This document shows, piece after piece, positions 10,763 through 34,138 of a DNA stretch of 64,000 nucleotides. Where the stretch lies: positions 8 to 64,007 of the IMG/VR virus record IMGVR_UViG_3300007508_000607; one strand, given 5' to 3'. The notes below the pieces were generated by a model. That model was not told the DNA's origin. It did no database searches and saw nothing but the letters and a program-made list of their open reading frames with translations. The stretch comes from a virus (taxonomy: Duplodnaviria; Caudoviricetes). A program made the translations under genes and the position numbers. Each line of letters starts with the position of its first letter. The first letter of the stretch is position 1.

Positions 10763-10805
10763 AAAAAAATAGGGAGGAGTTTTCCTCCCTATTTCTTTAT
10801 TTTTT
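10763..10805. terminator. Bidirectional intrinsic terminator between convergent blocks
   Basis: AAATAGGGAGG-agtttt-CCTCCCTATTT with A run before and T-rich run after. Confidence 0.85.
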
Positions 10806-11168
10806 ACTTAGCCCACTTTCCTTCAGACACAATCCTTGAAATAACTCCGTAGACAGACAAATCTCCGAAAGCATCCACAACAGATTCATTCTGTGGCTCT
10901 CTCATTGTTTTCACAACTAAATTCAAAAGTCTCTGAACCTTATCATTCATTCGTATTATAAGACCTGTCATACTCATCCTTATCTCACTTTCATCATTCA
11001 AACTTGTCCCCAAACTAATATTCCCAGGCCCATAGTCCATCTGTTTCTCACAGAATATCTTATAGTCTTCTGACTGAATCTCTTTAAATCGTTCCATCAT
11101 GCTAGGGTATACTCGCTCACAATACGCTATAGCATCTTCTTTTTTACTACTACTTTTATTTCTATTCA
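10804..11168 (-). CDS. DUF1599 / nucleotide-modification-associated domain protein
   Basis: FCEKQMDYG...IRMNDKVQRL...ESVVDAFGDLSVY motif. Confidence 0.7.
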
Positions 11169-12926
11169 TTAATGTACCCAATGGTTATCTATTACTGCTT
11201 CTACTTCCATCGATATGCCAGGACAGTAGTGCTTAAATGCGTCTATCATCTCAATTTCTAGTAATCTTCCTACTTCGTCAGCTTCGTCCTCATGGGCTTC
11301 CACTAGTATCTCGTCATGAACTACATTTACTATTTTAGCGTCGTAATTACCGCCATCTATAGCCTCCTTTACTTTACATAATGCAAGCTTAGTAATAGAC
11401 GCAGAAGCTCCCTGACATATAATATTTTTAGAAATATTTAATGCATGAGATACCTGACGTTTATCATCCCAATCAAAAGAAGATAGGTCTCTCCTTCTTT
11501 TGTCAAGCGGTGATAGTGCGAATTTTCTTTTTTTTGCTGCTGATACTGCTTGGTCTAAAACTTTTTTAATGTTAGGAAAAGTAGAAAAATACTTATTCAT
11601 AAGAGTTTTAGCTTCCATAAAGCTTATACCTAAATTCTCTGCAAGCCTCCCAGGCCCAATACCATATATTAATCCGAACGTTAAAGCTTTAGCAGCATTA
11701 CGTTGTTTCTTTGTAATTTCCTTGTACGGAATTCCGTAGATTAAGCTTGCCGAGTTAGTATGAAGATCAACTTTATTATTTATAGCGTCTATTAACCCAG
11801 GCTCCTTACTGATATAAGCCAGAACTCTAATTTCCTGGCTAGCATAATCAGCTGCTATAATTTTATACTCCGGGTCTTGCGAAGTAAAAGCCGCTCTATA
11901 CCTCTCGTCACTTGGTATGTTCTGTAAATTAGGGCTAGTACTTGAGTATCTTCCAGAATCTGCGCCCAACTGTTTAAAATTGGAGTGTATTCTACCGTCG
12001 TACTTACTAACGAATTTGTTAAAAAATTCTTCTCCGTAAGTACTGATACGCTTTTGCTTTTCTCGGTAATCTAACAAGAAGTCCACGACCTCGTGGTTTA
12101 TTTTTTTTAATTCCTGCTCACCTGTAGAAGTTATATTCAATCCGGTAATCTTATTTAGTATAGGTAGTAGTTGTTTTGGAGATTTATAGTTTATATCAAC
12201 GCTATCAAATAAAGTTAATTGTCCACAGTAAGGCTCAAAGTATTTATCTAAACCATTTTTAGCTTTTTTAGCGGCGGTCTCTGCCTCCTCTCTTAAAGCT
12301 GTCCATCTTTTTTTGTCCAGATATAATCCGTTTAATTCCATGTCCCCTGTAGGAGAAACAGTTCTGTACTCTAATCTTGATAACTCGTCCATGTCCCTAC
12401 TTTCTAATAATCTCTGCATGTTTTTATACAAAGGAATTAGATGTTTAGTATCGTCACCAGCATACTTTATTTGACTTTCTGTAAAGGGTGATCCTAATCT
12501 CATATCAACAAAAGATTTCTGTTCGGCTTTACTAACTTCAACCCCTAAGTACTTGTACAAAACTGAGTCTAAACTGCTACTTAACTTTTTACCTGTAGTC
12601 AAAAGTTGGTTAGCGAGCATAGTACACCTCATATTTGTTAGTTCTACCTCAAAGTTTCCTTTTATCATCTTATAATCAAACTTTGCGTTATGTAAAACCT
12701 TAACTAAATCTTTTTCCGCTAACCAATGTAGCACTGTAAAAATTTTAGTACTTAGTTTGAAAACATCAAATACGAATTGCTTGTGCTCAGTACCAACCTG
12801 AAGTAGTAATACTTTATTTAGCATTGGATCTAGTCCGTTTGTTTCAGTATCAACTGCTACCATACTTTGCGTCTTTAAATAAGACATGGCATCACTTAAT
12901 CCTTCCTCTGTTGTTATGTATCCCAT
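11169..12926 (-). CDS. polA: Family A DNA polymerase (3'-5' exonuclease + polymerase)
   Basis: DTET, HNAKFD, YAGDD exonuclease motifs; SGRYSSTSPNLQNIP, ADYASQEIR, RNAAKALTFGLIYG, VHDE polymerase motifs. Confidence 0.95.
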   Translation of the reverse strand: MGYITTEEGLSDAMSYLKTQSMVAVDTETNGLDPMLNKVLLLQVGTEHKQFVFDVFKLSTKIFTVLHWLAEKDLVKVLHNAKFDYKMIKGNFEVELTNMRCTMLANQLLTTGKKLSSSLDSVLYKYLGVEVSKAEQKSFVDMRLGSPFTESQIKYAGDDTKHLIPLYKNMQRLLESRDMDELSRLEYRTVSPTGDMELNGLYLDKKRWTALREEAETAAKKAKNGLDKYFEPYCGQLTLFDSVDINYKSPKQLLPILNKITGLNITSTGEQELKKINHEVVDFLLDYREKQKRISTYGEEFFNKFVSKYDGRIHSNFKQLGADSGRYSSTSPNLQNIPSDERYRAAFTSQDPEYKIIAADYASQEIRVLAYISKEPGLIDAINNKVDLHTNSASLIYGIPYKEITKKQRNAAKALTFGLIYGIGPGRLAENLGISFMEAKTLMNKYFSTFPNIKKVLDQAVSAAKKRKFALSPLDKRRRDLSSFDWDDKRQVSHALNISKNIICQGASASITKLALCKVKEAIDGGNYDAKIVNVVHDEILVEAHEDEADEVGRLLEIEMIDAFKHYCPGISMEVEAVIDNHWVH

Positions 12927-13732
12927 TTTAAAAAATCCTCCAAAGTTTTGGAATGTTTCTTACTCCGCAACTTTTTTAATATCTTTTCTTTTATTTGTCT
13001 TATTCTTTCTCTTGTTAACCCCATATCTACGCCTATCTCTTTTAGAGTGTACGGCCTAACTTGCTCAATTCCGTAGTACATCTTTAATATACTCTTTTCC
13101 CTTTTAGGGAATGTTTTCAGTACGTGAGTTAGCTCTTTTTTAAACTCTTCATCTGTTTTTAATACGCCATAAGATAAATCAGCGGGTATAACCTCATTCA
13201 AAGTTTCATTATTTTCAGTATGTGGCGTATCAAGCCCAATCACTGTGTAGTTAAATTTTAAATCTCTTATAGCTGTTGTATCTCCTTCTAAATATTCTTC
13301 CAACTCATTCATAGAAGGGTACCTTCCTAAAGTATTTTCTAAACTTTCTGAAGCTTTTGTAGCTTTAGTGATGTTAGAAATTTTATTTAAAGGAAGTCTT
13401 ATAGTTTTTGCGTTTTCATGTAGTGAATTAAATATAGCTTGACGAATCCACCAAACAGCATAAGTAATAAATTTTACGTCCTTACTTACATCGAACTTCT
13501 CAAATGCTTTTACTAGCCCTAAGTTACCCTCTGATACTAGTTCATCTATTGTAAGTCCTTGATTTTGGTACTTTTTAGCCACACTAACAACAAATTTTAA
13601 ATTAGATATTATTACTTGTTCTCTTGCAGCATTATCACCATTCTTTCCTTTTTTTATTAATGCCCGCTCTTCTTCTTTACTTAAAGGAGTGCTAGGTATA
13701 ATAGATTTTAAATAGTAACTGAATGCATCCAT
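12914..13732 (-). CDS. RpoD/SigA-like sigma-70 factor (regions 2-4)
   Basis: NLKFVVSVAKKY, EGNLGLVKAFEKFD, KFITYAVWWIRQ, TLKEIG..MGLTRERIRQI. Confidence 0.92.
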   Translation of the reverse strand: MDAFSYYLKSIIPSTPLSKEEERALIKKGKNGDNAAREQVIISNLKFVVSVAKKYQNQGLTIDELVSEGNLGLVKAFEKFDVSKDVKFITYAVWWIRQAIFNSLHENAKTIRLPLNKISNITKATKASESLENTLGRYPSMNELEEYLEGDTTAIRDLKFNYTVIGLDTPHTENNETLNEVIPADLSYGVLKTDEEFKKELTHVLKTFPKREKSILKMYYGIEQVRPYTLKEIGVDMGLTRERIRQIKEKILKKLRSKKHSKTLEDFLKWDT

Positions 13733-13746
13733 ATTTATTTTTGATT

Positions 13747-13778
13747 AAAAAAAAGGGCACATCAATGATGCACCCTTT
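13747..13778 (-). terminator. Intrinsic terminator after the Ubl operon
   Basis: On - strand AAAGGGTGCATC-att-GATGTGCCCTTT followed by a T run. Confidence 0.7.
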
Positions 13779-13797
13779 ATTGTTATAAATGTTTGAA

Positions 13798-14001
13798 CTA
13801 GTTTTTTGCTTGGAAGTATGATCCCATAGCATCAACTACTCCTTGACCTGCGATATACGAAGGTACAATTGTAGTAATAGCTCCAACTAAGTTTTCAGCC
13901 ATTGCAGGATCTAGTCCTGCCCAGTCTACGATAAGTACGGATAAAACTCCGCCAAATGCAACCCATAGCTTCCTACTTGATAATTTCTCTTTCCAATTCA
14001 T
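13798..14001 (-). CDS. Small membrane protein, holin-like (67 aa)
   Basis: KLSSRKLWV followed by two hydrophobic segments. Confidence 0.5.
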   Translation of the reverse strand: MNWKEKLSSRKLWVAFGGVLSVLIVDWAGLDPAMAENLVGAITTIVPSYIAGQGVVDAMGSYFQAKN

Positions 14002-14266
14002 TTATTTTGCTTGGTTTTTTGTTTACATGGTATGTCTTATTATCAACCTGTCTAACAGCTTTTCCTGTATCTTCCAGTAATTGACAAATAGAACAATTTA
14101 TAGGTCCTCGGCATTCATCGTAATTGTCCCAGTTATGAAATATTTGATCAAACTTATCTCCATAATCAGGACCGACGGGACTTTGAGTATTTCTAATTTC
14201 GCCAAAGTCCTTGCTTTGAGATCTTTTTTGCCTACCATCATCTTGTTTAATTGAGTTTATGTTCAT
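13973..14266 (-). CDS. Hypothetical protein with Cys cluster (97 aa)
   Basis: ORF in operon; C-x4-C-x2-C. Confidence 0.5.
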   Translation of the reverse strand: MNINSIKQDDGRQKRSQSKDFGEIRNTQSPVGPDYGDKFDQIFHNWDNYDECRGPINCSICQLLEDTGKAVRQVDNKTYHVNKKPSKINELEREIIK

Positions 14267-14286
14267 ACTTTAATATAATCAATATT

Positions 14287-14880
14287 TTAGAAATGAGCAA
14301 TATAATGTTGAGGATTTTTATCTCCTCTGACCCAGTTTAACAAATACTGAGCTCCAATACTACTTACTATTCTATTTCCAAATTGTATTATATTGTTTTC
14401 AAACTCCCACTGTCTTTGACAGCTTCCATCCTCTACGTCATCTTTCGGTAAAGTTTTTAACATTACTTCAAGAGTATTTTTTTTATTCTTTGTGAATACA
14501 GCGATATCTCTTCCTTCGCTTCTCATATCCATCCAATATACGTCTTCATTTTTATCCACATAATTAAATAATAATTTTCTGAATTTTGAGTTATCGACGC
14601 AACATACTATTCCTTCATATCCATTAAGTTGATCTTCCGATTCTATACGAGATGTTATTGACCCAAATCCATATCTTGCAGACAATGATTCAGATTTCTC
14701 ATCCATTATATCCTCCATAAAAAAGTTTTGGTAGGATAAATTTTTATTTTCTACTGTATCGTCATCTGCAAACGTAAATGATACGTTGTCAGAAAACTGA
14801 CCGTGAGTATCTAAATTGTATAAATGCTCGGCAAGCCAACTTCCTATTCCACCTGCTCCAACTACCAGTACACGTTTCAT
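14287..14880 (-). CDS. ThiF/E1-like adenylyltransferase
   Basis: VVGAGGIG, DDDTVENKNLSYQNF, CCVDN..R, WMDMRSEG, candidate catalytic Cys in GSCQ; TAATG overlap with JAB gene. Confidence 0.88.
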   Translation of the reverse strand: MKRVLVVGAGGIGSWLAEHLYNLDTHGQFSDNVSFTFADDDTVENKNLSYQNFFMEDIMDEKSESLSARYGFGSITSRIESEDQLNGYEGIVCCVDNSKFRKLLFNYVDKNEDVYWMDMRSEGRDIAVFTKNKKNTLEVMLKTLPKDDVEDGSCQRQWEFENNIIQFGNRIVSSIGAQYLLNWVRGDKNPQHYIAHF

Positions 14881-15308
14881 TAATTTATCTCCATTTCTAT
14901 TGGTTCCCACCTACGTTCAGACTCATTTCCATCATAGTAGTATGCCTTTGTTTCTTTAAATTTAGGTGAGTGTATTATATACACACCAGTATATCCAGCA
15001 CCCTGTAAATCTGTAATAGAAGGAATAGGTTTATTATTTGGGTGAGAATGCATTATCCCAATAAAGTCATTCTCTGCTTTAGGAGACACGTGAGTAGTCT
15101 CTCGAAGCATACCCATAAATTCATTCGGGTCCGGTATATAATGTACCTCCTTGTTCTCTGTACTAACGTTTGTTAGCGGTATAAACTTTTCACACTTCCA
15201 TGAGTTTCCTTGTTTTTTACCGACCATAGCCCCGACGATCTCGTCAGGGCTATCATCTGCATAACTTGTCATTTCATAGAGTGTATCTTTTGAAATGTTA
15301 AAGTTCAT
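14880..15308 (-). CDS. JAB/MPN+ metallopeptidase
   Basis: N-terminal Glu (PDEIVG) and intact HSHP-x5-PS-x2-D motif. Confidence 0.9.
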   Translation of the reverse strand: MNFNISKDTLYEMTSYADDSPDEIVGAMVGKKQGNSWKCEKFIPLTNVSTENKEVHYIPDPNEFMGMLRETTHVSPKAENDFIGIMHSHPNNKPIPSITDLQGAGYTGVYIIHSPKFKETKAYYYDGNESERRWEPIEMEIN

Positions 15309-15309
15309 T

Positions 15310-15567
15310 TTATCCACCAACTAATGCATTAGCCATCATAATTTCTTCTGCTTCCATTATGTCTTCTAAAGAAATAGTATCAGGAGTTTTATGCTGCCCG
15401 TCTACGTAAGCCCAACGTCCAGTTGTTTCTGACTCGTACTTGATTTTTTCTAATGCAGCTACAGGCATTCCTGACCATTCGTCGTGCCCCTTTGTAGATA
15501 CAATTTTTATTGTGACAGGAGTCAACTCTCTTGATAAATCACTTCCGTTATTTTTGTTTTCGCTCAT
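15310..15567 (-). CDS. Ubiquitin-like (beta-grasp, ThiS/MoaD-like) protein ending in Gly-Gly
   Basis: 85 aa ending NALVGG-stop, immediately upstream of JAB and E1 genes. Confidence 0.8.
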   Translation of the reverse strand: MSENKNNGSDLSRELTPVTIKIVSTKGHDEWSGMPVAALEKIKYESETTGRWAYVDGQHKTPDTISLEDIMEAEEIMMANALVGG

Positions 15568-15599
15568 GTTTTCTTACCATGGTTTTTTTGTTTATAATA

Positions 15600-17672
15600 T
15601 TATAATGTGTGAATGGCACTTGCGACTAAAGCGTCGTTATGAAGTGCATATATTCTATTAACTAACTTATCCATTCCTACCTGACTTGAAGATTTGTCTA
15701 CGATACATATATACTTTCCGTCAGGGAATGAATATACTCCGCACTGTGGGTCATTAGTATTTATCTGCTCCTTACCGCCCGTATCTATAAAGTAGTTTCG
15801 TAAGGATCCTTTAATAAGATACCCAGTTTTTGACTCCCCATCAGACATTATTACTGTCTCTTCTTCAATGCCAAATGTTTTCTCAGTCTCCACCAGTAGT
15901 TCTTTACTTTTCTCTATAGCATCTATAAAAGCCTTCTTACCAGAAGAGATAATACCTTTTATATCATCAACCTCTACCCCTTCCACTGATTTACCATCTA
16001 AAAGAGTATTAACCACATCAAGCATAGATCCCTGTCTAGATAACCTTATAATTTTCTGGGTATTTTTTACTCTGTACGACGTATCATTTATAACAATGTA
16101 GTTGATATTTTTTCTTCTCTCTAGAGGCAGTTTTAAAGATACATTCGTAAAGTCAAATTCATCCCTAACATTTATATCTACACCTATTTGTAAGTATGTA
16201 TGCATTTTTAATGAACATTTACTGACAGACTTTATAAAGTAGTCAAAATCATCTTGTTTAGTAAAACACAGACCCCTCTCAATAACAGGTTCTACCTCAT
16301 CAGAATTTATTCGTTTATCGTTTACATACATTCTAGTAGTAGATATTCCAATGCTATTTGTACTTACCCTTTTCTCTACTTTAAAAGAAACTTCTCCAAC
16401 ACTCCCACTTCCTTCTGTATTTGAGACATAGGATAAAAATATTGGTAGAGCTTGATCAAAGTTAATATCATCTAAGTTGTATGCTTTAGACAAAGTACTT
16501 AAAACTTTATACGGCAATCCAGAGATATCCGATTTTAGCACTTGGTTCTCGTACTCTATTTTATCCTCTGAGTACAGAACACCATTCAATTTTAATGACT
16601 TTCCTGGTATCAATAAAGTATTTAATCTATCCTTTATTTTCTCACGCAGTTTTTCCTGTGATTTTATAGCAGCCTGCTCTCTTGCAGTTCTTTGTAAATC
16701 CCGTTTAGTAATAAGATTTAAAGAATTATTATCTAAAAATTCTACGTGATTGTCGTCCCTACCTCTCAGATAGTTATCAAGAATTTTAATATTAGGTAAT
16801 GCTGGATCCAAGTCTGTAAAAATCAAATTTCCAACTGGCACATGGTTTTCGTATCTTTGGTAGTACCCTCTCCTAACGCTATCACTACAAAAGTAATATC
16901 TACCAACGTCTACGTAATTATATGAAGGGTCCGAGTGCGGTATGACTTTTAAAGAAACACTAGTATCGGTACTCCACCTACTATGCTCTCTCTGCTGTGA
17001 AACAAATAGTCTGAAGTTATCTTTTTCTAACACATTTGTTATAAAACTTAGCTTTCTATTGTCGTATAAAAGCCTTTTGTTTTTCTTATCAAGGCATATT
17101 GTTGACTCTTTACCACCTTTGAACACTTCTTTTAATACCAACTCTATATCCTTTTTGTCTATATTCATTCGGATAGATGACCAATTATCCATCAAGTAAT
17201 CTTCACATGTAGATACTACATCCTTTACGTTTTTATGTACTTTGTTCGATACCCCAGGTACCTCAATATCGTCCAATATACGTGATAGTACATACATAGA
17301 CTCAAAATCTGTTTCTTGTATATTTTCAATGTATAGGTTATCTCTGTATGTTATCTTTAACTTGAAAAGGTTTTTCTTATCTCCCCAGTGCTGGTAATGT
17401 CCACCGTCCTCAAATTCCTTATCATTTATTTTTTGTATATTAACTTGGGAGCCGCAGCCAGATGATACTATTACAGAAGATTTACGCACCTCATATTCTA
17501 AGACATTAAGTATATCTACCGCACTGTCTTTGTAATATTTATTACCTACTGCTGCAGTCATACCTCTTTCTAAATCACTAACTTTTGAATTAATATCTTC
17601 CATATCTTTGTCGGATAGACCTAATTCATACAACCCGTTTATGGCGGGTAGTAAATGTTGCGTTGTATTCAT
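15600..17672 (-). CDS. Large hypothetical protein (690 aa) with C-terminal Cys-containing domain
   Basis: AGGA RBS; intact ORF; C-terminal GYLIKGSLRNY...DGKYICIVD...ALHND. Confidence 0.8.
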   Translation of the reverse strand: MNTTQHLLPAINGLYELGLSDKDMEDINSKVSDLERGMTAAVGNKYYKDSAVDILNVLEYEVRKSSVIVSSGCGSQVNIQKINDKEFEDGGHYQHWGDKKNLFKLKITYRDNLYIENIQETDFESMYVLSRILDDIEVPGVSNKVHKNVKDVVSTCEDYLMDNWSSIRMNIDKKDIELVLKEVFKGGKESTICLDKKNKRLLYDNRKLSFITNVLEKDNFRLFVSQQREHSRWSTDTSVSLKVIPHSDPSYNYVDVGRYYFCSDSVRRGYYQRYENHVPVGNLIFTDLDPALPNIKILDNYLRGRDDNHVEFLDNNSLNLITKRDLQRTAREQAAIKSQEKLREKIKDRLNTLLIPGKSLKLNGVLYSEDKIEYENQVLKSDISGLPYKVLSTLSKAYNLDDINFDQALPIFLSYVSNTEGSGSVGEVSFKVEKRVSTNSIGISTTRMYVNDKRINSDEVEPVIERGLCFTKQDDFDYFIKSVSKCSLKMHTYLQIGVDINVRDEFDFTNVSLKLPLERRKNINYIVINDTSYRVKNTQKIIRLSRQGSMLDVVNTLLDGKSVEGVEVDDIKGIISSGKKAFIDAIEKSKELLVETEKTFGIEEETVIMSDGESKTGYLIKGSLRNYFIDTGGKEQINTNDPQCGVYSFPDGKYICIVDKSSSQVGMDKLVNRIYALHNDALVASAIHTL

Positions 17673-17700
17673 TTTGTTTCCTTTGGTTTACTCAAATGGT

Positions 17701-18096
17701 TTACTCAAATAAGTTTGATTTTTCCAAGTTTTCTTCGTCCATTTTACACGATGTCATAACTAAAAAGTTGTCGTTATCCGGGTATACGCTGACTTCCTTG
17801 CCGATTAATTCATTTAAATCAGAGATACCATAGTACCTCATTAATTTAGCTAGAGAGCTATTTGGCGATATATTACCTTCATGGTTTAATGACAGCCAAA
17901 GCCCCTGGATTCTCTTATTTCCTTTATTATCTTCTGTCCATACATCAGAAATTTGAAAGTTTTTTCCGTCCGGCTGCTCCACAGAAAATTTAATTTTTTC
18001 TGAGGTCTCGCCACGCACGTCCACTTCTACTTTTTCTGCGTTTGTAACAGTAACTTTTCTTAGCTGACTTCCTACTTTTAAATTTAAAAAACTCAT
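17701..18096 (-). CDS. Hypothetical protein, possibly OB-fold ssDNA-binding
   Basis: Beta-rich 131 aa with acidic tail ending LFE, like the 24217-24648 protein. Confidence 0.5.
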   Translation of the reverse strand: MSFLNLKVGSQLRKVTVTNAEKVEVDVRGETSEKIKFSVEQPDGKNFQISDVWTEDNKGNKRIQGLWLSLNHEGNISPNSSLAKLMRYYGISDLNELIGKEVSVYPDNDNFLVMTSCKMDEENLEKSNLFE

Positions 18097-18217
18097 ATGT
18101 TTTTTTCGGTTTGTTGTTTATCTTTTATTCCTTCTTATTAGTGTGTTTGATAAACAAAAATGACCCATAAAAATTTTTACAGGCCATTTCATAGTAAGTC
18201 GCATACTTACTATATTA

Positions 18218-18228
18218 TTCTTATACCA
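18218..18228 (-). promoter_or_regulatory. Putative phage early promoter TGGTATAAGAA (copy 1)
   Basis: Identical 11-mer at 34401-34411; both intergenic, same strand, extended -10-like. Confidence 0.5.
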
Positions 18229-27090: not shown

Positions 27091-29825
27091 TATAAATAAC
27101 CTGGTTTTACTATTATTACTCGTACAGACCTACCGCGCATTTTTCTTGACTGTACTGTTTTATTATATATCATTCCATTCTCATAAAGCTCATGTATTAT
27201 AGCTTTCTTTGTGTGAGTTAAACTTTCATTTGAAGCTCTTAAAAATGACTGTATTTCTTTAAAAGCTAAGTTAACTACTAAGTACCCTACAGGTTCCTTA
27301 GTCTCTTTGTGCGATCCCCAGTACCCGATTATAGGTGTATGGTTATTTTCTTCGACATCCTCCATATAATTTGGTAACATCCTTACCTTGTTGCTGGACA
27401 TTAATTCCTGTAAACCTTTTAAAAATCTATCAGATGCCAACTCTTCTGCAGCTTCCGATGCTACGTCCATGATTTGTACATCAAGAATACGCATAAAAGT
27501 TTCTTGCGCTTCTATTGCCTTTTTCTTACTCCAAAGAAAGTCCGATATAAATTTAAAACTTGTTGCTAACAATGAAACATTTCTAGCTATTCTAATATCG
27601 TTTGACTGCCCGCCTACTTTCTTATAAAAATGATCCATATTATCTTGCATTACTTTATTTAATAGTACAGGTGCTACATTAAATAAATGGTGCATATATC
27701 TAGCCGTAAATCCTGGGTAGAATTTTTTCATCTCTTGGATTCTTTTACCACGAACCATGTCTTTATACTTTGTGTTACACGTAACTGGTATTAACCTTGC
27801 AAGATTTGAAGCTTCACCGGACGGTGTATCCTCACCAGTGGATGCTAGCCACCCTTTGACAACGAATGTTTTTGCTAGTTCCATATTAGCATTCATCCTT
27901 GACCTAGCTGTGTTATCTGCGTAGTTTTGCATAAGGGTTAAGGCACCATCAAAAGCTCCCGGCTTATTGAACATTCTCTTTTTAAAGTCATCAATCATAA
28001 ATAAAGAATCTTTCATAAAATACCCTATCCTCCCCAAGGAATTAGCTGTGGAACTCCAAGTCGGTACAGAGTCAAACTCACCGTAAAAGTTTTGGAATGC
28101 TTGCATTGTATATGACTTTCCTGTTCCTGATTCCCCTCTAACAAAGTAAGTAAACTTTGTTCTATCTCCTTCTAAAAACGGGAATAAGATTGGTAAGAAT
28201 GTAAAGGATAAAGCACCATAGGTGACTTCTTCATTTACAACTTTTATTAAATCCTCTTGTATATGTTTTTTTAATGCGATAAAAGTTTCATCGTCTATTT
28301 TTTGTAGATCTAAACACTCCGCAAATTCTTCCCCTTCTAAGCTAACCAACGTGTCGTCATTACTTCTTATACCGTCTTTATCTACAATAACTGACGGACT
28401 CATATACTTGTACGGATACTTATCGCTGCCCTTTAAATCATTAAATCCAAACTGCTTTAGTATGAATACAGGCTCTGCATCTGCATACTTTTGAATAGCA
28501 GTTTTAATAGATTGTATATTATCTATTAATAGTTTATTTGGCCCTAAAGCCTTATAGATGAAAGCTTTTAATTTCTCGTCATTAGAAAAGTCATCCGAAG
28601 AAATTTCGAAGTCTATATCATCCTTCTTCTTCTTTATAACCCCCTCAAATAATCTTTTGTCATACTCAGGCATGCCTGTACTAATTGTAGTATCTTTAGT
28701 TATATCCATTGTAAAACTTGAAAGTTTTTTTATTTTTGTATCTTCCTTACCTGGAAGTCTTTCGTAATATGAGTTCCCTCTCTGAAAAAGAAAATCTGAT
28801 TTATCTAAAGCATTTATATCAACTTCTTTTTCTTGGGTGGACCAGTGGTAGAAAGCTATAGGACTTTTTGCTCTTCCAATAGCCGAGCATTTTTGAGAAC
28901 AGATGCTACCATACTTTCCGTCTTGAAGCTTTTCACACGTTATAGGAAGGTAACCTTCTCCCTCTTCACGCATCTTTGTCTTCATAACTCCTATATTCTT
29001 TTTTGTCAACTCCGAATCATAGTTCTTCATTCTGCTAAAGAAGTTTTGTGTGGCGTATCTTTCAGCCTCCTTCCCCATATTAGTAAACATGTACCCAACT
29101 ATTTCGTTAAAAAAGTTAGGGGACTCTTCTTGCTCTAAACACGTATCCCACATATTTTGCAAAGCTTCGCATTTTTTTAGAGGTTCCGTATAAGGGGCTG
29201 ACTCATTAGAAAATGACATAGTATCAGCGTAGTCAATAGTACTTACTGATAAATTATCTATAAATTCACTAAAGACTTTAGACTTATGATGATACCCGTT
29301 CGGCCCTTTTACGAGATTTCCAAAAGATCCTTTATTTACTTGAGTTTGTTTAGGGAATATCTCCCACTCAATCCCGTTTGCGGTAGGGCGCATATTTGAA
29401 AATATACTTTCAAAACCACTCTTTATGATACTAGACGGAACCGGATTTTCAAAGAAAACCCATACATGGTAACCTTTATTTCCTGAAAACTCAATATAAG
29501 ATGGTATCCCCTTATTGCTAAGAAGTTTTTTTGAAATCTCTGCCTGTTCTAATAACTTATCCTTCCAGTCTTCGATATTAAAACTTTCACTACTCCACAC
29601 TGATTTAGTTAGGTCTATGTCTAAGCAAGCCCATTTAATGGTATTCTCTTCCGGCTTCACTTGGTACAATCCTATTGTCTGTCGTCCAGTCAAATGTGCT
29701 TCTATTATATCTTCATCAATAGGCTCTTTTACTGGAATATAAGAACCTTTTGTCTGCTGTATAGCATAGACATCGTCCCTGTGGACGAAAAGTTTTTTAA
29801 ATATATCTGTACTAATTTTTCCCAT
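27090..29825 (-). CDS. AEP primase-helicase fusion
   Basis: CLDID, SGNKGYHVW, EIFPKQ AEP motifs; Cys-rich PriL-like segment; Walker A GESGTGKS and IDD. Confidence 0.85.
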   Translation of the reverse strand: MGKISTDIFKKLFVHRDDVYAIQQTKGSYIPVKEPIDEDIIEAHLTGRQTIGLYQVKPEENTIKWACLDIDLTKSVWSSESFNIEDWKDKLLEQAEISKKLLSNKGIPSYIEFSGNKGYHVWVFFENPVPSSIIKSGFESIFSNMRPTANGIEWEIFPKQTQVNKGSFGNLVKGPNGYHHKSKVFSEFIDNLSVSTIDYADTMSFSNESAPYTEPLKKCEALQNMWDTCLEQEESPNFFNEIVGYMFTNMGKEAERYATQNFFSRMKNYDSELTKKNIGVMKTKMREEGEGYLPITCEKLQDGKYGSICSQKCSAIGRAKSPIAFYHWSTQEKEVDINALDKSDFLFQRGNSYYERLPGKEDTKIKKLSSFTMDITKDTTISTGMPEYDKRLFEGVIKKKKDDIDFEISSDDFSNDEKLKAFIYKALGPNKLLIDNIQSIKTAIQKYADAEPVFILKQFGFNDLKGSDKYPYKYMSPSVIVDKDGIRSNDDTLVSLEGEEFAECLDLQKIDDETFIALKKHIQEDLIKVVNEEVTYGALSFTFLPILFPFLEGDRTKFTYFVRGESGTGKSYTMQAFQNFYGEFDSVPTWSSTANSLGRIGYFMKDSLFMIDDFKKRMFNKPGAFDGALTLMQNYADNTARSRMNANMELAKTFVVKGWLASTGEDTPSGEASNLARLIPVTCNTKYKDMVRGKRIQEMKKFYPGFTARYMHHLFNVAPVLLNKVMQDNMDHFYKKVGGQSNDIRIARNVSLLATSFKFISDFLWSKKKAIEAQETFMRILDVQIMDVASEAAEELASDRFLKGLQELMSSNKVRMLPNYMEDVEENNHTPIIGYWGSHKETKEPVGYLVVNLAFKEIQSFLRASNESLTHTKKAIIHELYENGMIYNKTVQSRKMRGRSVRVIIVKPGYL

Positions 29826-30180
29826 GTATTCTCACTTCGTCCCAAAAGACTTGGTTGTTTTCGATTAATTGTTTTATATGTTTTTGCTTTTTTGATAACC
29901 TAGACTTACCAGATTTTACCTCAATAAAAGTAATCTGATTATCTCCATAATGTATATAGTCTATTGGCTGCCCTAAGAATTTTACTTGCTTTGGGTCATA
30001 AGGAAAGTTATCTAAGAAGGGGGCTAGCTGTTCTGCTATATGGCCCGTAACTACTTCACTGCTTTTCTTCTGTGATAAAATCTTAGAGTATTTAGCCTTT
30101 AGACTTCTTACAGTCTTTATAGTATAGTATGTATTTAAACTTAGAGCTATAATTGAAATTATTAAAAAAGCAATTAACAT
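29812..30180 (-). CDS. Membrane-anchored PD-(D/E)xK Holliday-resolvase-like endonuclease
   Basis: N-terminal TM helix; EQLAPF, FLGQPIDYI, FIEVKSG. Confidence 0.8.
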   Translation of the reverse strand: MLIAFLIISIIALSLNTYYTIKTVRSLKAKYSKILSQKKSSEVVTGHIAEQLAPFLDNFPYDPKQVKFLGQPIDYIHYGDNQITFIEVKSGKSRLSKKQKHIKQLIENNQVFWDEVRIHGKN

Positions 30181-30183
30181 TTT

Positions 30184-31662
30184 TTATTTTGATTTTTCTG
30201 TATTGTCACATAAGAAGTTACAGAAAACTCCGCACCTTAGCCTACCGTCTGGAAAAATATCAGCACTCCCTTTTTGCTTCTCAGACCAGGTATGAAAAAG
30301 ATGAGGCTTATCTAGTGGGCATCTTATATGATTTATTTTATAAACTGCACGTCTCAAGTTCTGTGGCTTGTTTTGTAATTTACCTATAACAAGTTTTTGC
30401 TCAAGATACTCTCTGACTTTAGTTACAGATCCCTCTACGTTATCAGTAGTCTTTTTTATTATGGACTCAATTTGTGAGTTTGATAACTTAATTTTTATTT
30501 TATCTGGAGAAGACTTAGACAACAGTTTATTAACCTTTTCTCTTAGAATGTCCACAGGTTTCATTGATATATCTGGACGTCCGCATCCCATCCTATCCGC
30601 CACACGTAAATCAAGTAAATTGTGTATATTATTCTCTCCGACTTTAGCAATCAACTTCTTTACTGATGCTTCTGATTTTCTAAAAGATGCATCAAATAGA
30701 TGATTCCTTATTAGAAGAGTGACTGTCTCTATAATAGAACTAGGATACCCCCACTGTGTTAGTATTTTCTCAGCTACGAAAGCTCCAACATTTTCGTGGT
30801 TATAAAAATGCATCCCAGTATTAGTATACACCTCAGTAGCAGGCTTACCTATATCATGCAACAGTGCGGATGTTCTTAGTAGTAGGGTATTTGAATGGTT
30901 CAATGGCACAGAGTCAAGCGCATACATAATATGCTGGTATAAGTCTAAGTTCTTTCTTTTATTACTTTGCTCTATACCTACACAAGACTTTAATTCAGTA
31001 AACAGCTCTTCGTCTAGTTTAGATTTGACCATCAGTGCAAAAAATCTGCTTGGCGTTTCGCACCTAGTAAGAACCTTTTTAAACTCGTTAAATATTTGTT
31101 TAGAAGGTGCTCCAGCTATCTTTAACTTATTATCTTGCACAGCCTTTAACGATGTGTCATCTATTTTCCAAGATTTTCCTAATATGCTACATAGAGATAT
31201 AGCTCTCAGTAATCTAACCTTAGATTCAAGTATTCTCTGGTAAGGGTCACCGACAAACTTTATAGTCTTATTATTCAAATCTTTAATCCCGTCGTAAAAA
31301 TCAAACCACTCATCTTTTAAAGGGTTGAAATAAAGGGCATTCACTGTAAAGTCTTTAGATGCCGCATCATCCTCCAAATTATCTGTAAAAGAATAATTGT
31401 AGTAAGTATTTTGTAACTTAACTTTTTTTAACGGGTACAAACAATACTCTCTATCTTTGTACTTTATAGTTACAGATGTATCATACTGGTTTATTCTTAG
31501 TATCTTCGGGGTTAGTGCAGCACGGAGTTCTTTTAAGTTAGCTCTTATAGCAACATCAAATCCGCTTGGCTCCACACCTAGATATATGTCTCTGGCGGTT
31601 CCGCCGCAAAGCCAAGCATCGAACCCGTAAGAATTGAGCATCTTTATAATTTGAGTTCCCAT
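30184..31662 (-). CDS. cca: CCA-adding enzyme / poly(A) polymerase family protein with HD domain (NTase motifs degenerate)
   Basis: GGTARD, DFTVNA, RLLRA; HD domain LLHDIGKP, HENVGA, VADR. Confidence 0.85.
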   Translation of the reverse strand: MGTQIIKMLNSYGFDAWLCGGTARDIYLGVEPSGFDVAIRANLKELRAALTPKILRINQYDTSVTIKYKDREYCLYPLKKVKLQNTYYNYSFTDNLEDDAASKDFTVNALYFNPLKDEWFDFYDGIKDLNNKTIKFVGDPYQRILESKVRLLRAISLCSILGKSWKIDDTSLKAVQDNKLKIAGAPSKQIFNEFKKVLTRCETPSRFFALMVKSKLDEELFTELKSCVGIEQSNKRKNLDLYQHIMYALDSVPLNHSNTLLLRTSALLHDIGKPATEVYTNTGMHFYNHENVGAFVAEKILTQWGYPSSIIETVTLLIRNHLFDASFRKSEASVKKLIAKVGENNIHNLLDLRVADRMGCGRPDISMKPVDILREKVNKLLSKSSPDKIKIKLSNSQIESIIKKTTDNVEGSVTKVREYLEQKLVIGKLQNKPQNLRRAVYKINHIRCPLDKPHLFHTWSEKQKGSADIFPDGRLRCGVFCNFLCDNTEKSK

Positions 31663-32024
31663 TAGTCTTCTCTCACCATCCCGTCTACACCAAATTCTAC
31701 TTCACACCAATCAGACACCATACTTATGTTATAAGCTCTTGACCTTATAACATGGTTTTCACAAACAGTAGTAGCGTGACATTTAGGCCACTCTTCTTTT
31801 ATTTGGTTACGTATAGATTCATCATAGCACTCTTTTCTACTCTTGTTTATTTTTTTTAATTTCATTTTAGTTACTCCGCAATTCCCATGTTTTTTTATTC
31901 TTGTGAATGACATAAAATATTTACAGTTACCGCACGTCTTCACAATCCTAAAATTGGGTCTGTTTTTTAAATCGTCGTTATTTTGAGGTGTCCCTAAATC
32001 ACTGAAGTCATATTTATTACTCAT
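31662..32024 (-). CDS. Cys-rich hypothetical protein
   Basis: CGNC...C...VCENH probable Zn-binding pattern. Confidence 0.6.
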   Translation of the reverse strand: MSNKYDFSDLGTPQNNDDLKNRPNFRIVKTCGNCKYFMSFTRIKKHGNCGVTKMKLKKINKSRKECYDESIRNQIKEEWPKCHATTVCENHVIRSRAYNISMVSDWCEVEFGVDGMVRED

Positions 32025-32028
32025 AATA

Positions 32029-32550
32029 TTATATAGTCTTTCCTTGTAAATGATCATACTCATGTTGAATAATAGTAGGTAGGTAGGTAAGGTTTCCGTA
32101 CATCTTCATACTACGCCGCTGCTCTGCATCTTCTAGAGTATAGTATGATATTTCAACGTTTTTTCTTCTAATAACCTTTTTAGGTTTTTGACCAGGGTAG
32201 CTGAGACAGCCCTCTTCTGACTTGTACTTTTTACCCGTCCCATTCACAGTCGGGTTAATAAATTCCTTCCACTTCCAGCCGTTTCCGGTGTCATCGAGTA
32301 CTCTAACTACAAACACTGATAAAGGTGGGGACTTCTTATCCCAAATTTGATTAGATGCCAGACCCAAACATTTGTCAGATACAGACTCTGCGGTATCCTT
32401 CAAATCATTTACGATATCAATCGTGTCTTGGTCCCATACTTTAGAGTCATTGCCAGTAACTGGCATCACCAAACTTCCGTTTGTAGTTTTACAGTCTGTA
32501 CTTTGTTGTTTTAATTTTAAATTATCAAATGTATTTATCTTTTTAATCAT
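32029..32550 (-). CDS. def: Peptide deformylase
   Basis: GLASNQ, EGCLS, QHEYDH motifs all present. Confidence 0.93.
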   Translation of the reverse strand: MIKKINTFDNLKLKQQSTDCKTTNGSLVMPVTGNDSKVWDQDTIDIVNDLKDTAESVSDKCLGLASNQIWDKKSPPLSVFVVRVLDDTGNGWKWKEFINPTVNGTGKKYKSEEGCLSYPGQKPKKVIRRKNVEISYYTLEDAEQRRSMKMYGNLTYLPTIIQHEYDHLQGKTI

Positions 32551-32740
32551 CAGAACTAAACTCCCTCATAACTTCGGAGTTATAGTTTGTAATTTCAGAT
32601 AACATACTTTGTGATTTAGGTAGAACCTCTATTGTACCTGATATAGACACATAGTATTGCCTGTCTCCTATCTTTTCTAACTTATTTTTTACTTCTGTAT
32701 TTTTGCTGTCATCATGCGACAAAGATTTTATTTCTTTCAT
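32543..32740 (-). CDS. Hypothetical protein (65 aa)
   Basis: AAAGGA RBS; overlaps def start. Confidence 0.5.
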   Translation of the reverse strand: MKEIKSLSHDDSKNTEVKNKLEKIGDRQYYVSISGTIEVLPKSQSMLSEITNYNSEVMREFSSDD

Positions 32741-32755
32741 GTTTAGTTTCCTTTG

Positions 32756-34138
32756 TTATAACTTCTTAAAAATTTTATTTCTATGGTATCCCTGATACTT
32801 TAATATATCAATTTTTTGATCAATAAAGTCAATTATTTTTGCTTTTTTCTTTCCTTTAGACATCCTCATCAGTCTTCCGGCAGCTTGTCTAAGTTTGACT
32901 TCCGACTTTATAGGTGCACAAAGATATAATATTTCCAGTTGTGGAATATCTATTCCAGTCGAGAACAAACCATAAGTAGAGACAACAATTTTTTTCTCTC
33001 CAGCGTACAGTTCACCCATCACTTCTCCTCTCTTTTTCTTAGTCATTTTTGATGTTAACATCACGCTCTTATCCCCTAATGCGTGATTCAGGTATTCTAC
33101 TTGTGATATTCTAGTACAAAGTAGAATACTGTACTTATCTTTATTTTCGTCACTTATTACGTAGTCTAAGATGAAGTCGTTTCTATCATCATCCTGCGAT
33201 AGATCAGTAATCATCTCTTGATACTCCTGTGTAGAAAACATTTGAAATTCATACTGAGTTTTTACCTGCTCTACCTCAGGTGTAATTAAGAAATTCTCTA
33301 GAGCAGACTTAGGTACTTTATGTATTATAGGTCCGGCTGCAAAGTGTATCACTTTAGTTAGGCCGTCGTCCCTTCTAGGTGTCGCTGTAAAACCGAATTT
33401 ATACTTTGCACTAATATTATTCATGGTTCTAAACCAAGTTTCAGCGCCAACGATGTGAATTTCATCTCCAATAACTTGTCCAAATCTTTCGTTTACTATT
33501 TCAAATTTATCTTTTTTTAACTTAGACATAGTTTGGTGTAACCCTATAGTTATAGGTTTTACTTCGAACCTACCATCACCTATAAATCCTATATCATCTT
33601 CATTCAGATTAGAAAATTTTACAAACGATTTTATAGTTTGATTCGCTAACTCAAGCGTATGCACGAGAATCAATGTAGGTTCCTTTCTTCTCAAGGTTAA
33701 ATTAACAAAACATATTGTTTTACCTGACCCAGTCATCGCTTCTACTATTCCTATACTCTTACTCATACAGGATGTCACTATATCTTCCTGGTACCCCCTT
33801 AACTTGCCTTTAAACTTAAAGTTAGAAAAGTAGTCCGTTTTAGGGTTACTTAGTCTCTTGTCATGAATATCAGATCCATCTACTTTTATCTCGTGCGAGC
33901 GGGCTATTTTAAGAATTTCTCCTAAAGCTCCTACGGGCGCTATTAATAAGTTATCGTTATCATTACCTGTTTCATAGTACTTTAGTGATGAGGGAATCCC
34001 CCAGTTTTGTAACCCTAAGTCCAACCTCTTGTGAAAAAGAGGATTACTTATAGTTAAAAGTTTTTTTATATCGTCTTGAACCTCTTTTGGAAATCCAAGA
34101 ATAGAAACTTTGTTTTTTATTACAATTAGTATCTCCAT
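32756..34138 (-). CDS. Superfamily 2 (DExH) helicase
   Basis: LRGYQ, TGSGKT, DEIH, TATP, GIDIP, QAAGR; GGAGGA RBS before ATG 34138. Confidence 0.92.
   Translation of the reverse strand: MEILIVIKNKVSILGFPKEVQDDIKKLLTISNPLFHKRLDLGLQNWGIPSSLKYYETGNDNDNLLIAPVGALGEILKIARSHEIKVDGSDIHDKRLSNPKTDYFSNFKFKGKLRGYQEDIVTSCMSKSIGIVEAMTGSGKTICFVNLTLRRKEPTLILVHTLELANQTIKSFVKFSNLNEDDIGFIGDGRFEVKPITIGLHQTMSKLKKDKFEIVNERFGQVIGDEIHIVGAETWFRTMNNISAKYKFGFTATPRRDDGLTKVIHFAAGPIIHKVPKSALENFLITPEVEQVKTQYEFQMFSTQEYQEMITDLSQDDDRNDFILDYVISDENKDKYSILLCTRISQVEYLNHALGDKSVMLTSKMTKKKRGEVMGELYAGEKKIVVSTYGLFSTGIDIPQLEILYLCAPIKSEVKLRQAAGRLMRMSKGKKKAKIIDFIDQKIDILKYQGYHRNKIFKKL

What the first reader, a model, noticed from the sequence alone, without database searches (positions are those of the whole stretch)
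10804..34138. Early/replication block is code-neutral while late genes need recoding: a likely code switch
Seen: the core - strand genes (PolA, sigma, E1/JAB/Ubl, NrdJ, RecU, primase, CCA, Def, helicase) contain roughly 70 Trp codons by hand count, all TGG (15 in NrdJ, 11 in primase), and every stop I checked is TAA/TAG. They translate correctly in code 11 or code 4. Tape measure, baseplate, neck and fibre genes need TGA=Trp. Inference: the host uses code 11 and the phage installs UGA decoding mid-infection, gating morphogenesis. An AT-rich phage of a native code-4 host would be expected to use TGA in all genes.
Basis: partly seen in the sequence, partly recalled or inferred. Interest (0 to 1): 0.85.

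Follow-up and report, generated by a model that had tools for sequence, protein, structure and literature searches.

The report
Two-code marine phage: TGA as tryptophan
This fragment of a large marine phage spells about a third of the tryptophans in its tail, fibre and sugar-transfer genes with the stop codon TGA but keeps its DNA-replication genes free of TGA, a known phage habit seen here in a new lineage.

Summary
Observation confirmed. In 28 minus-strand replication genes I count 86 TGG and 2 in-frame TGA. In 33 plus-strand genes I count 105 TGG and 53 TGA (Fisher p=6.6e-10). All stops are TAA or TAG.

TGA means Trp. Against an 80%-identical relative, 22 of 78 conserved Trp sites in plus-strand genes swap TGA and TGG, close to the neutral rate of 35%. 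In the replication block only 1 of 71 swaps, against 24.7 expected (P=2.7e-12).

The window is about 31% of a roughly 210-kb phage and holds no tRNA. A complete relative and a sister contig carry a conserved tRNA(UCA) inside the lysis cassette, beside a peptidoglycan amidase. In the sister contig, minus-strand small genes use TGA as a stop, with ATGA stop/start overlaps and TAA at the same place in orthologues. Together these point to a walled host that uses the standard code.

The reading matches the published model of Borges et al. Timing and gating are untested, the host is unknown, and one relative has TGA in its sigma gene.

This scan already noted TGA-recoded phages on other DNA. Its gut-phage notes describe a tRNA(UCA) with an extra hairpin copying the Trp anticodon loop, and the same feature occurs here. 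Verdict: new member of a known kind.

The parts
10804..34189 (-). Replication/nucleotide/takeover block of 28 genes. It is readable in code 11 or code 4 except for two accessory genes: 86 TGG, 2 in-frame TGA, all stops TAA or TAG.
   Evidence: Pfam; counts; TGG<->TGA exchange 1 of 71 against relative G001.
21671..21673 (-). In-frame TGA in the P-loop transferase-like gene 21386-21907, inside a variable island that G001 lacks.
   Evidence: Six homologues span the site, with F, C or L in that column. No orthologue in G001 or G002.
23180..23182 (-). In-frame TGA 16 codons before the end of GT2 gene 23132-23860.
   Evidence: The site is TGG in G001 and G002. The phrog_29879 match covers residues 31-242 of 242.
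34516..64000 (+). Late block that needs TGA=Trp: 38 in-frame TGA against 63 TGG. It holds a tape-measure-like 1085-aa ORF, baseplate, fibres, a glycosyltransferase cluster and the start of a collagen-like fibre gene cut by the contig end.
   Evidence: The G001 and G002 orthologues are continuous across the TGAs.
1..7170 (+). Plus-strand genes that also need TGA=Trp: tail-fibre piece, glycosyltransferase/methyltransferase fusion 2986-5493 with 10 TGA, and neck-region genes. All 15 in-frame TGA of the 1-10735 plus block lie here (15 TGA, 33 TGG).
7213..10735 (+). Structural genes without TGA: small ORF, 300-aa protein, tail sheath 8416-10053 and putative tube 10064-10735. Counts are 0 TGA and 9 TGG. 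The evidence is weak: P about 0.02, and the G002 orthologue of 7410-8312 has one TGA.
   Evidence: (phrog_2839 tail sheath).
7179..7207 (+). Sigma-70-like promoter match TTGACA-17-TACATT in the 42-nt gap ahead of the TGA-free sheath segment. The hexamers are kept in G001 and G002.
   Evidence: It is a consensus match only; the scan found no more matches than in shuffled sequence.
34401..34411 (-). TGGTATAAGAA motif (resembles an extended -10) at the head of the minus block. The only other exact copy is at 18218-18228, also minus-strand and intergenic.
10767..10794 (.). Two-way terminator-like hairpin where the plus and minus blocks converge.
63863..64000 (+). Start of a collagen-like (Gly-X-Y) gene cut by the contig end. 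The sister contig G005 begins inside a collagen-like fibre gene and carries tRNA(UCA) 3.8 kb further on.

Best explanation
The window is roughly a third of a marine myovirus-like phage of about 210 kb that writes its genes in two dialects. Plus-strand genes (tail, baseplate, fibres, glycosyltransferases and, in relatives, lysis genes) use TGA as a tryptophan codon at about one Trp site in three. The minus-strand replication block is kept free of TGA by selection, so it can be translated by an unmodified host that reads TGA as stop.

The likely device is a phage tRNA with anticodon UCA. In the complete relative and in a sister contig this gene lies on the late strand, between spanin-like genes and an amidase endolysin, just past the point where this contig breaks. 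It has the A1-U72/G73 acceptor end of the phage's own tRNA-Trp. It also has an extra hairpin whose loop, GUCCAAA, copies the tRNA-Trp anticodon loop, which may be the handle for host TrpRS.

Shown: TGA=Trp, the module-specific selection, the tRNA in relatives, and TGA used as stop in minus-strand small genes of the sister contig.
Inferred: the host uses code 11, this genome carries the tRNA, the tRNA is charged with Trp, and expression is late.
Untested: that recoding gates morphogenesis.
For: TGA is sense:
- PHROG glycosyltransferase profiles match end to end across 3 and 4 TGAs.
- G001 and G002 orthologues are open across the sites.

TGA is Trp:
- Window against G001, plus-strand genes: 14 TGA=TGA, 10 TGA->TGG and 12 TGG->TGA. 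Only 1 F, 1 Y and 1 R pair with a TGA.
- Window TGA against G002, with TGA masked as X: 26 aligned sites give 12 TGG, 7 TGA, 3 F, 1 Y, 1 G, 1 N and 1 V.

Module contrast:
- 2/86 against 53/105, p=6.6e-10.
- Twelve control codon pairs are equal between blocks.
- Trp-site exchange is 1/71 against 22/78, while K/E/Q exchange is 34.7% against 34.8%.
- Replication blocks of relatives: 0/47, 0/60, 0/29 and 0/31 TGA per Trp codon. The G002 5-35 kb bins give 1 TGA and 117 TGG.

Device:
- tRNA(UCA) is present in G002, G005, G006 and G007.
- Seven of 27 base pairs show compensatory change between G005 and G002.
- Rfam tRNA-Sec scores are 32.5 and 38.5 bits.
- Acceptor AGGC.../G73 matches tRNA-Trp(CCA).
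- The extra-arm loop is GUCCAAA in both genomes.

Host reads TGA as stop and has a wall:
- G005 minus-strand genes have 7 terminal and 1 internal TGA, against 0 and 19 on the plus strand, p=9e-6.
- Six ATGA overlaps with the next start codon.
- TAA in both testable G002 orthologues, at the same position in one and 2 codons earlier in the other.
- Amidase_2 endolysin lies next to the tRNA in 4 of the 5 records searched; the exception is this window's own contig.
- The TGA share in late genes is 0.34, well below the 0.6-0.8 A share of other NNA/NNG pairs.
Against: - No tRNA lies on this contig.
- No RF-1 or TrpRS domain is found in G000, G001 or G002.
- The link from this contig to G005 rests only on synteny with G002, equal distance to G002, and both contigs breaking in collagen-like repeats. 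blastn finds no overlap between them.
- The host is unknown. Two genome-contig scans found nothing.
- Two minus-block genes do carry in-frame TGA.
- Relative L068 has TGA at the conserved WWIRQ Trp of sigma, and a second TGA in RecU.
- In G002, code-4 ORFs of the 95-155 kb region hold many TGAs that I did not resolve into stops and sense codons.
- The tRNA scores below Rfam's gathering cut-off of 47 bits and has a Sec-like or Ser-like long arm, so its charging with Trp is inferred from codon evolution only.
- 'Early' and 'late' are assigned from gene function, not from expression data.
Confidence: 0.72

Rival explanations
1. Same two-dialect genome and suppressor tRNA, but no gating function. 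TGA codons simply drift into any gene that is only translated once the phage tRNA(UCA) is present, and are purged from genes that must work before that. On this reading the pattern is a by-product of expression order, not a regulator of morphogenesis.
For: In plus-strand genes TGA and TGG swap at 28%, close to the 35% neutral rate at K/E/Q sites, so no individual TGA site is conserved as such. The TGA share is 0.34 and is spread over accessory glycosyltransferases as well as virion genes. Borges et al. also describe 'detoxified' stop codons accumulating after tRNA acquisition (passages).
Against: Nothing here separates by-product from regulator. A handful of TGAs per operon would be enough to gate it, whichever sites they occupy. 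The tRNA sits inside the lysis cassette, and the endolysin has 2 TGAs, as in the published lysis-timing idea.
Confidence: 0.3
2. The host natively reads TGA as Trp (code 4), and the replication block avoids TGA for some other reason, such as recent transfer from a code-11 phage or a codon-efficiency effect.
For: No suppressor tRNA lies on this contig. No RF1 or TrpRS gene is found. RecU, present here, is typical of Firmicutes and Mollicutes (recalled).
Against: The avoidance is maintained by selection across genomes whose synonymous sites are 35% exchanged and in 4 further relatives. TGA behaves as a stop in minus-strand genes of the sister contig. An amidase endolysin and a lipobox spanin-like gene imply a walled host. 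The TGA share is only 0.34 where mutation bias would give about 0.7. Relatives carry their own tRNA(UCA). The habitat is seawater; I recall no free-living marine code-4 bacteria.
Confidence: 0.06
3. TGA stands for glycine (code 25, a phage of Gracilibacteria or Absconditabacteria), for selenocysteine, or for serine as the long arm of the tRNA might suggest.
For: ARAGORN and Rfam class the tRNA(UCA) of relatives as Sec-like. A long variable arm plus G73 are also features of tRNA-Ser (recalled). Code-25 phages exist (Borges passages).
Against: Of 26 window TGA sites aligned to G002, 19 are TGG or TGA and 4 are F or Y. Only 1 is G, and none is C or S. Twenty-two TGA<->TGG swaps occur at otherwise conserved Trp sites.
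Confidence: 0.02
4. The TGAs are real stops and the plus-strand genes are broken or split (pseudogenes, assembly errors or many small genes).
For: Under code 11 several pieces start with ATG soon after a TGA, for example 35924 and 36326.
Against: Coding density on the plus-strand parts rises from 0.70-0.91 to 0.96-1.00 with TGA read as sense. All pieces stay in frame. Orthologues in two other genomes are open across the same sites, often with TGG. Profile matches span the TGAs.
Confidence: 0.01

Closest known systems
TGA-recoded 'Agate' phages (about 127 kb) of animal guts, Borges et al., bioRxiv 10.1101/2021.08.26.457843 (passages read)
   Same: TGA read as Trp in structural and lysis genes. 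The DNA-replication module is kept in the standard code. A suppressor tRNA is present. Hosts are predicted to use the standard code. Genomes have low GC.
   Different: This lineage is marine and about 210 kb, with a contractile-tail gene set. I did not test whether it is related to Agate. Its recoding is partial (0.34 of Trp codons in late genes). The gain in coding density in G002, 0.852 to 0.924, is below the 10% rule used in one large jumbo-phage screen (PMC13037316, passage).
[quoted passage not shown] S6)
   Same: The UGA-reading tRNA sits at the lysis cassette, and lysis genes carry in-frame TGA.
   Different: No TrpRS or RF1 gene is found in the complete relative. The tRNA alone, with an extra CCA-loop hairpin, appears to be the whole device.
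Block-wise dual coding in crAss-like phages (Yutin et al. PMC7886860; Mgcod preprint 10.1101/2022.06.29.495998; abstracts seen in the search listing)
   Same: The genome is divided into blocks, one readable in the standard code and one needing a reassigned stop.
   Different: Different phage group. Here the blocks coincide with the coding strand, and the sister contig shows TGA in active use as a stop with ATGA overlaps.
Two-headed tRNA(UCA) of gut phages noted earlier in this scan (e1-5768471, e1-5755457, e1-5686554; AI notes)
   Same: A UCA anticodon plus a conserved extra hairpin whose loop copies the tRNA-Trp anticodon loop. Here the loop is GUCCAAA against UUCCAAA.
   Different: The hairpin occupies the variable-arm position and is found in a marine jumbo phage. 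I did not compare its sequence with the gut examples. The function is untested in both.
allo-tRNAs and Sec-like tRNAs with unusual cloverleaves (PMC5389517; abstract seen in the search listing)
   Same: The tRNA is picked up by tRNA-Sec models, has a long extra arm, and in some cases a UCA anticodon.
   Different: Those have 8/4 or 9/3 acceptor/T branches. This one folds as 7/5, and codon evolution points to Trp.

Membership tests
Stop-codon-recoded phage (TGA to Trp) of a standard-code host, with a standard-code early module (Borges type) | In-frame TGA inside genes whose homologues read through | tested here: met
   PHROG profiles span 3 and 4 TGAs. Orthologues in G001 and G002 are open across the sites. 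Density is 0.70-0.91 under code 11 against 0.96-1.00 under code 4 on the plus-strand parts.
Stop-codon-recoded phage (TGA to Trp) of a standard-code host, with a standard-code early module (Borges type) | TGA aligns with tryptophan | tested here: met
   22 TGA<->TGG swaps among 78 conserved Trp sites. 19 of 26 sites are TGG or TGA in G002 with TGA masked as X.
Stop-codon-recoded phage (TGA to Trp) of a standard-code host, with a standard-code early module (Borges type) | Recoded codons concentrated in structural/lysis genes; replication genes compatible with the standard code | tested here: met
   2/86 against 53/105. Selection test P=2.7e-12. Four further relatives have 0 TGA in the replication block, and one (L068) has 2.
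Stop-codon-recoded phage (TGA to Trp) of a standard-code host, with a standard-code early module (Borges type) | Phage-encoded suppressor tRNA with anticodon UCA | tested here: inconclusive
   Absent from this 31%-complete contig. Present and covarying in G002, G005, G006 and G007.
Stop-codon-recoded phage (TGA to Trp) of a standard-code host, with a standard-code early module (Borges type) | Host uses the standard code | tested here: inconclusive
   No host found. Indirect evidence: TGA acts as a stop in minus-strand genes of the sister contig, an amidase endolysin is present, and the TGA share is low.
Stop-codon-recoded phage (TGA to Trp) of a standard-code host, with a standard-code early module (Borges type) | Code changes during infection (early standard, late recoded) | not testable with these tools
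   Needs time-resolved RNA, tRNA or ribosome data from a cultured phage-host pair.
Phage of a native code-4 host (Mollicutes type) | TGA used as the main Trp codon in all gene classes | tested here: not met
   TGA share is 0.02 in the replication block and 0.34 elsewhere, against a 0.6-0.8 A share at other NNA/NNG pairs.
Phage of a native code-4 host (Mollicutes type) | TGA never acts as a stop | tested here: not met
   In the sister contig only: 6 ATGA stop/start overlaps, and TAA in both testable orthologues, at the same position in one and 2 codons earlier in the other.
Code-25 phage (TGA = Gly; Gracilibacteria/Absconditabacteria hosts) | TGA aligns with glycine | tested here: not met
   1 of 26 aligned sites is G.
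Selenocysteine decoding | TGA at Cys/Sec positions of a few selenoproteins | tested here: not met
   55 in-frame TGAs in the curated gene set, none aligned to C in late genes. Only the site at 21671-21673 has C in 3 of 6 homologues. SECIS elements and SelB were not searched.

The most novel reading that the evidence does not exclude
A marine jumbo-phage lineage runs two genetic codes from one genome using a single RNA device: a tRNA(UCA) in the lysis cassette. Its acceptor end matches tRNA-Trp, and an extra hairpin displays a copy of the Trp anticodon loop (GUCCAAA), so the host TrpRS charges it without any phage synthetase or release factor. In the same genome TGA still ends early genes, with back-up TAA/TAG stops a few codons downstream. 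Because only a third of late Trp codons are TGA, such phages pass code screens as 'standard code'. One marine jumbo-phage survey found code 11 in all 85 of its bins (PMC9123017, passage).
Probability: 0.4. Interest if true: 0.6.

Novelty: new member of a known kind. Interest (0 to 1): 0.4.

Why it matters
Gene callers run in code 11 would shred the tail, fibre and glycosylation genes of this phage. Whole-genome code screens can miss it because the recoding is partial and confined to one strand. The paired genomes give a clean quantitative picture. TGA<->TGG is nearly neutral in late genes and strongly selected against in replication genes, while TGA remains a working stop in early-type genes of a sister contig. 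That is about as close as sequence alone can come to showing that one genome is read in two codes. The finding also extends a phenomenon described mainly from guts to seawater. And it gives a second, independent habitat for the odd tRNA(UCA) with a Trp-anticodon-like extra hairpin, which could be tested in a simple reporter assay.

Tried and rejected
- Host search: two genome-contig scans found no relative, one with the AAA_24 protein and one with a 4-sequence alignment of it. No host call is made.
- Cultured relatives: the sheath gives only remote hits at 25-34% identity (Vibrio, Salmonella, Bacillus G and Eggerthella phages). They are of no use for host or code.
- Gene 21386-21907 has no match in 'phages'.
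- RF-1 and TrpRS domains: none in G000, G001 or G002.
- Shine-Dalgarno use as a host clue: 21 of 60 genes have a GGAG/GAGG/AGGA word upstream. This is not discriminating and I dropped it.
- I first thought that the sheath operon is a code-neutral, host-promoter-driven unit. The TTGACA-17-TACATT match is conserved. But 0 of 9 Trp codons is weak (P about 0.02), and the G002 orthologue of 7410-8312 has a TGA. I keep it only as a note. The P for 30 codons printed rests on a wrong count and is withdrawn.
- The G002 middle region (95-155 kb) shows many code-4 'in-frame' TGAs, but code-11 and code-4 densities are about equal there. I did not sort these into stops and sense codons, so I make no claim about them.
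- The head genes (capsid, portal, terminase) were not identified in the window, or among the nine G005 proteins I scanned.
No expression claim is made.
- Supplementary tables of the papers were not opened. Table S2 and the genome lists of Borges et al. may already hold related phages.
- The literature search for an extra-arm Trp suppressor tRNA (14 papers held at least 4 of 5 terms, 10 were listed) showed no such description by title. That one search is the only basis for calling it undescribed.

Full report
WHAT THE WINDOW IS

The window is all but 7 bases of a 64,007-bp linear virus record with a CheckV completeness of 31%. GC content is 0.35. GC skew flips at about 10.7 kb and 34.3 kb, which matches three gene blocks: plus-strand genes at 1-10735, minus-strand genes at 10804-34189, and plus-strand genes at 34516-64000.

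PHROGs places tail sheath, baseplate wedge, tail fibres and glycosyltransferases on the plus strand. Many plus-strand proteins have no family.

THE OBSERVATION

With a curated gene list, the 28 minus-strand genes hold 86 TGG and 2 in-frame TGA. The 33 plus-strand genes hold 105 TGG and 53 TGA (Fisher p=6.6e-10). Every complete gene ends in TAA (40) or TAG (20).

I dropped small unsupported ORFs and 5' extensions before counting; they are listed under the observation check. Counting them all at face value still gives p=6.7e-7.

The contrast is not a strand or composition effect. Twelve other NNG/NNA codon pairs have the same A share (0.59-0.84) in both blocks, while TGA is 0.02 against 0.34.

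NrdJ (15) and the primase (11) are exact.

Both sit in accessory transferase genes of an island that the closest relative lacks. It also missed that the segment 7213-10735, which holds the sheath and the putative tube, has no TGA (0 against 9 TGG).

TGA IS SENSE AND MEANS TRYPTOPHAN

Glycosyltransferase profiles match end to end across 3 and 4 TGAs.

A relative at about 80% nucleotide identity (G001, 52.2 kb) is collinear with window 5889-58166. In plus-strand orthologues, TGA pairs with TGA 14 times and with TGG 10 times, and TGG pairs with TGA 12 times. Only F, Y and R, once each, otherwise pair with a TGA.

Against the distant complete relative G002, with TGA masked as X in the alignment, 26 window TGA sites align to 12 TGG, 7 TGA, 3 F, 1 Y, 1 G, 1 N and 1 V. 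Glycine, cysteine and serine readings are therefore excluded.

Even the tape-measure-like ORF 35294-38551 is one gene. It looks like three ATG-started genes under code 11, but its second TGA is TGG in G001.

SELECTION, NOT HISTORY

Between the window and G001, conserved Lys, Glu and Gln codons have exchanged their third base (G<->A) at 34.7% of sites in the minus block (376 of 1,083) and 34.8% in the plus blocks (416 of 1,196).

Conserved Trp sites exchanged TGG<->TGA at 22 of 78 in the plus blocks, but at 1 of 71 in the minus block. The expectation there was 24.7, giving P=2.7e-12. TGA is therefore nearly neutral in late genes and is purged from replication genes.

The replication blocks of further relatives agree. 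They show 0 TGA among 47, 60, 29 and 31 Trp codons in four contigs, and 1 TGA against 117 TGG in the 5-35 kb bins of G002.

One relative, L068, is an exception. It has a TGA at the conserved WWIRQ tryptophan of sigma and another in RecU.

WHERE THE DECODING DEVICE IS

The window has no tRNA by ARAGORN, by Rfam at E<=1, or by the tRNA model. But it is only a fragment.

G002 is 210,208 bp with a CheckV completeness of 100%. It is collinear with window 1329-58641, and 45 of 60 window proteins have a match in it. It is recoded in the same way: coding density is 0.924 under code 4 against 0.852 under code 11.

G002 carries 25 ordinary tRNAs and, apart from that cluster, a 98-nt tRNA with anticodon UCA at 65786-65883. 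This lies immediately after the fibre genes where synteny with the window ends.

A pattern taken from this tRNA found three more contigs:
- G005 (64.7 kb).
- G006, which is 99.97% identical to G005. Its record name shares a metagenome number with G001.
- G007.

G005 is as distant from G002 as the window is (66.5% against 67.9% identity). It continues the synteny with G002 from 65.8 kb onward. It begins inside a collagen-like fibre gene, just as the window ends inside one. It is thus the neighbouring part of the same phage or a sister phage, although no sequence overlap proves this.

The tRNA is real. Between G005 and G002, 7 of its 27 base pairs changed on both sides and stayed paired, in the acceptor, D, anticodon and extra arms. 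Rfam scores it as tRNA-Sec-like at 32.5 and 38.5 bits, below the cut-off of 47.

Its acceptor end (A1-U72, AGGC..., discriminator G73) matches the phage's own tRNA-Trp(CCA). That these are TrpRS identity elements is recalled, not tested.

A lead from earlier notes of this scan made me look at the extra arm. Its loop is GUCCAAA in both genomes while its stem covaries. The anticodon loop of tRNA-Trp is UUCCAAA. This fits the 'second head' that those notes describe for gut-phage suppressors. Its role as a TrpRS handle is a hypothesis.

No RF-1 or TrpRS domain is encoded in G000, G001 or G002.

WHAT THE HOST PROBABLY READS

In G005 the tRNA lies on the late strand. On one side are a small membrane protein and an overlapping lipobox protein, which I read as a spanin-like pair. 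On the other side is an Amidase_2 endolysin with two in-frame TGAs. The host therefore has peptidoglycan, which wall-less code-4 Mollicutes lack.

The minus-strand small genes of G005 give a stronger indication:
- Fifty-two minus-strand genes of 70 aa or more (44 at 26-58 kb and 8 at 10-18 kb) hold 152 TGG, 1 internal TGA, and 7 TGAs within the last 15 codons.
- Plus-strand genes hold 19 internal TGAs and no terminal ones (p=9e-6).
- Six of the terminal TGAs form ATGA overlaps with the next gene's start codon.
- Two genes with usable G002 orthologues end there in TAA, one at the same position and one 2 codons earlier.

TGA is therefore a working stop in these genes, backed by a TAA or TAG a few codons downstream. 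G002 shows the same ATGA pattern.

The low TGA share in late genes (0.34, where mutation bias would give about 0.7) also fits a costly or recent reassignment better than a native one.

The host itself was not found. The DNA is held in full by four runs from two studies labelled marine or seawater metagenome, some of which may be the source.

HOW IT MOST LIKELY WORKS

Host ribosomes translate the TGA-free replication and takeover block, which includes the phage sigma factor. Late-strand transcription then yields both the TGA-bearing mRNAs and the tRNA(UCA), after which TGA is read as Trp.

- Shown: the codon meaning, the selection pattern, the tRNA in relatives, and TGA acting as a stop in a sister contig.
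- Inferred: the host's code, the presence of the tRNA in this genome, its charging with Trp, and its late expression.
- Untested: any gating role. The near-neutral TGA<->TGG turnover means that single sites are not conserved, so a by-product reading is a live rival.

COMPARISON WITH WHAT IS KNOWN

This is the model of Borges et al. (bioRxiv 10.1101/2021.08.26.457843; passages read). Their points match:
- TGA-recoded Agate phages keep replication genes in the standard code.
- Jade phages place code-change genes next to the lysis cassette.
- Only 35% of code-4 genomes showed a detectable suppressor tRNA.

Block-wise dual coding is also the subject of the Mgcod preprint and of Yutin et al. (abstracts seen in the search listing).

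What is new here is the lineage and the habitat. A marine jumbo-phage survey reported code 11 for all 85 of its bins (PMC9123017, passage). A large jumbo-phage screen required a 10% gain in coding density (PMC13037316, passage), which G002 would narrowly miss.

This scan has already recorded TGA-recoded phages and the two-headed tRNA on other DNA.

VERDICT

The finding is a new member of a known kind.

Noticed in passing
L052:3834-3933 (G005) and L039:1500-1594 (G002): The tRNA(UCA) of relatives has an extra arm whose 7-nt loop GUCCAAA is conserved while its stem covaries. It resembles the tRNA-Trp anticodon loop UUCCAAA. G002 encodes CCA after G73, whereas G005 has CCC there. The window encodes a PolyA_pol+HD (CCA-type) protein at 30184-31662.
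   Followed up: partly
window 7179-7207: The only TTGACA-N16-18-TAnnnT match on the plus strand of the window. It sits in the 42-nt gap before the TGA-free sheath segment, and the hexamers are kept in G001 and G002 while the spacer varies.
   Followed up: partly
window 34401-34411 and 18218-18228 (minus strand): The exact 11-mer TGGTATAAGAA occurs twice, both times in the large minus-strand intergenic spacers. It may be an early promoter resembling an extended -10.
   Followed up: partly
window 21386-24137: Variable island of transferase-like genes inside the replication block. It is mostly absent from G001, and it holds the only two in-frame TGAs of that block.
   Followed up: partly
window 18233-20227 against G001 (G001rc 12840-15857): The open frame holding the NrdJ orthologue in G001 is about 1 kb longer than the window's gene. 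A block is absent from the window (G001rc 13676-15507 against window 19069-19891). It may be an intein or a homing-endonuclease insertion.
   Followed up: no
L068 (IMGVR_UViG_3300028372_000017), 13287-14078 and 11548-12006: In this more distant relative the sigma gene has TGA at the conserved WWIRQ tryptophan and RecU has a TGA where the window has His. Its early block is therefore not code-neutral.
   Followed up: partly
G002 95541-95943 (minus strand): ARAGORN calls a tmRNA-like gene next to the cluster of 25 tRNAs. Its tag peptide does not end in the usual Ala-Ala.
   Followed up: no
L060:6203-7195 (G005): Full-length match to Pfam Volactin (E 5e-65), an actin-like protein, in the late strand of the sister contig. 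MoxR-type AAA and VWA genes lie at 15284-17959.
   Followed up: no
window 63863-64000 and L052:2-2800: The window and two relatives' contigs all break inside collagen-like Gly-X-Y repeats, so the assembly gap probably lies within one fibre gene.
   Followed up: partly
window 13733-13972: A 240-nt spacer after the sigma gene with a strong terminator-like hairpin. The code-4 ORF 13745-13966 in it translates to a W/R/S-rich peptide and looks non-coding.
   Followed up: no
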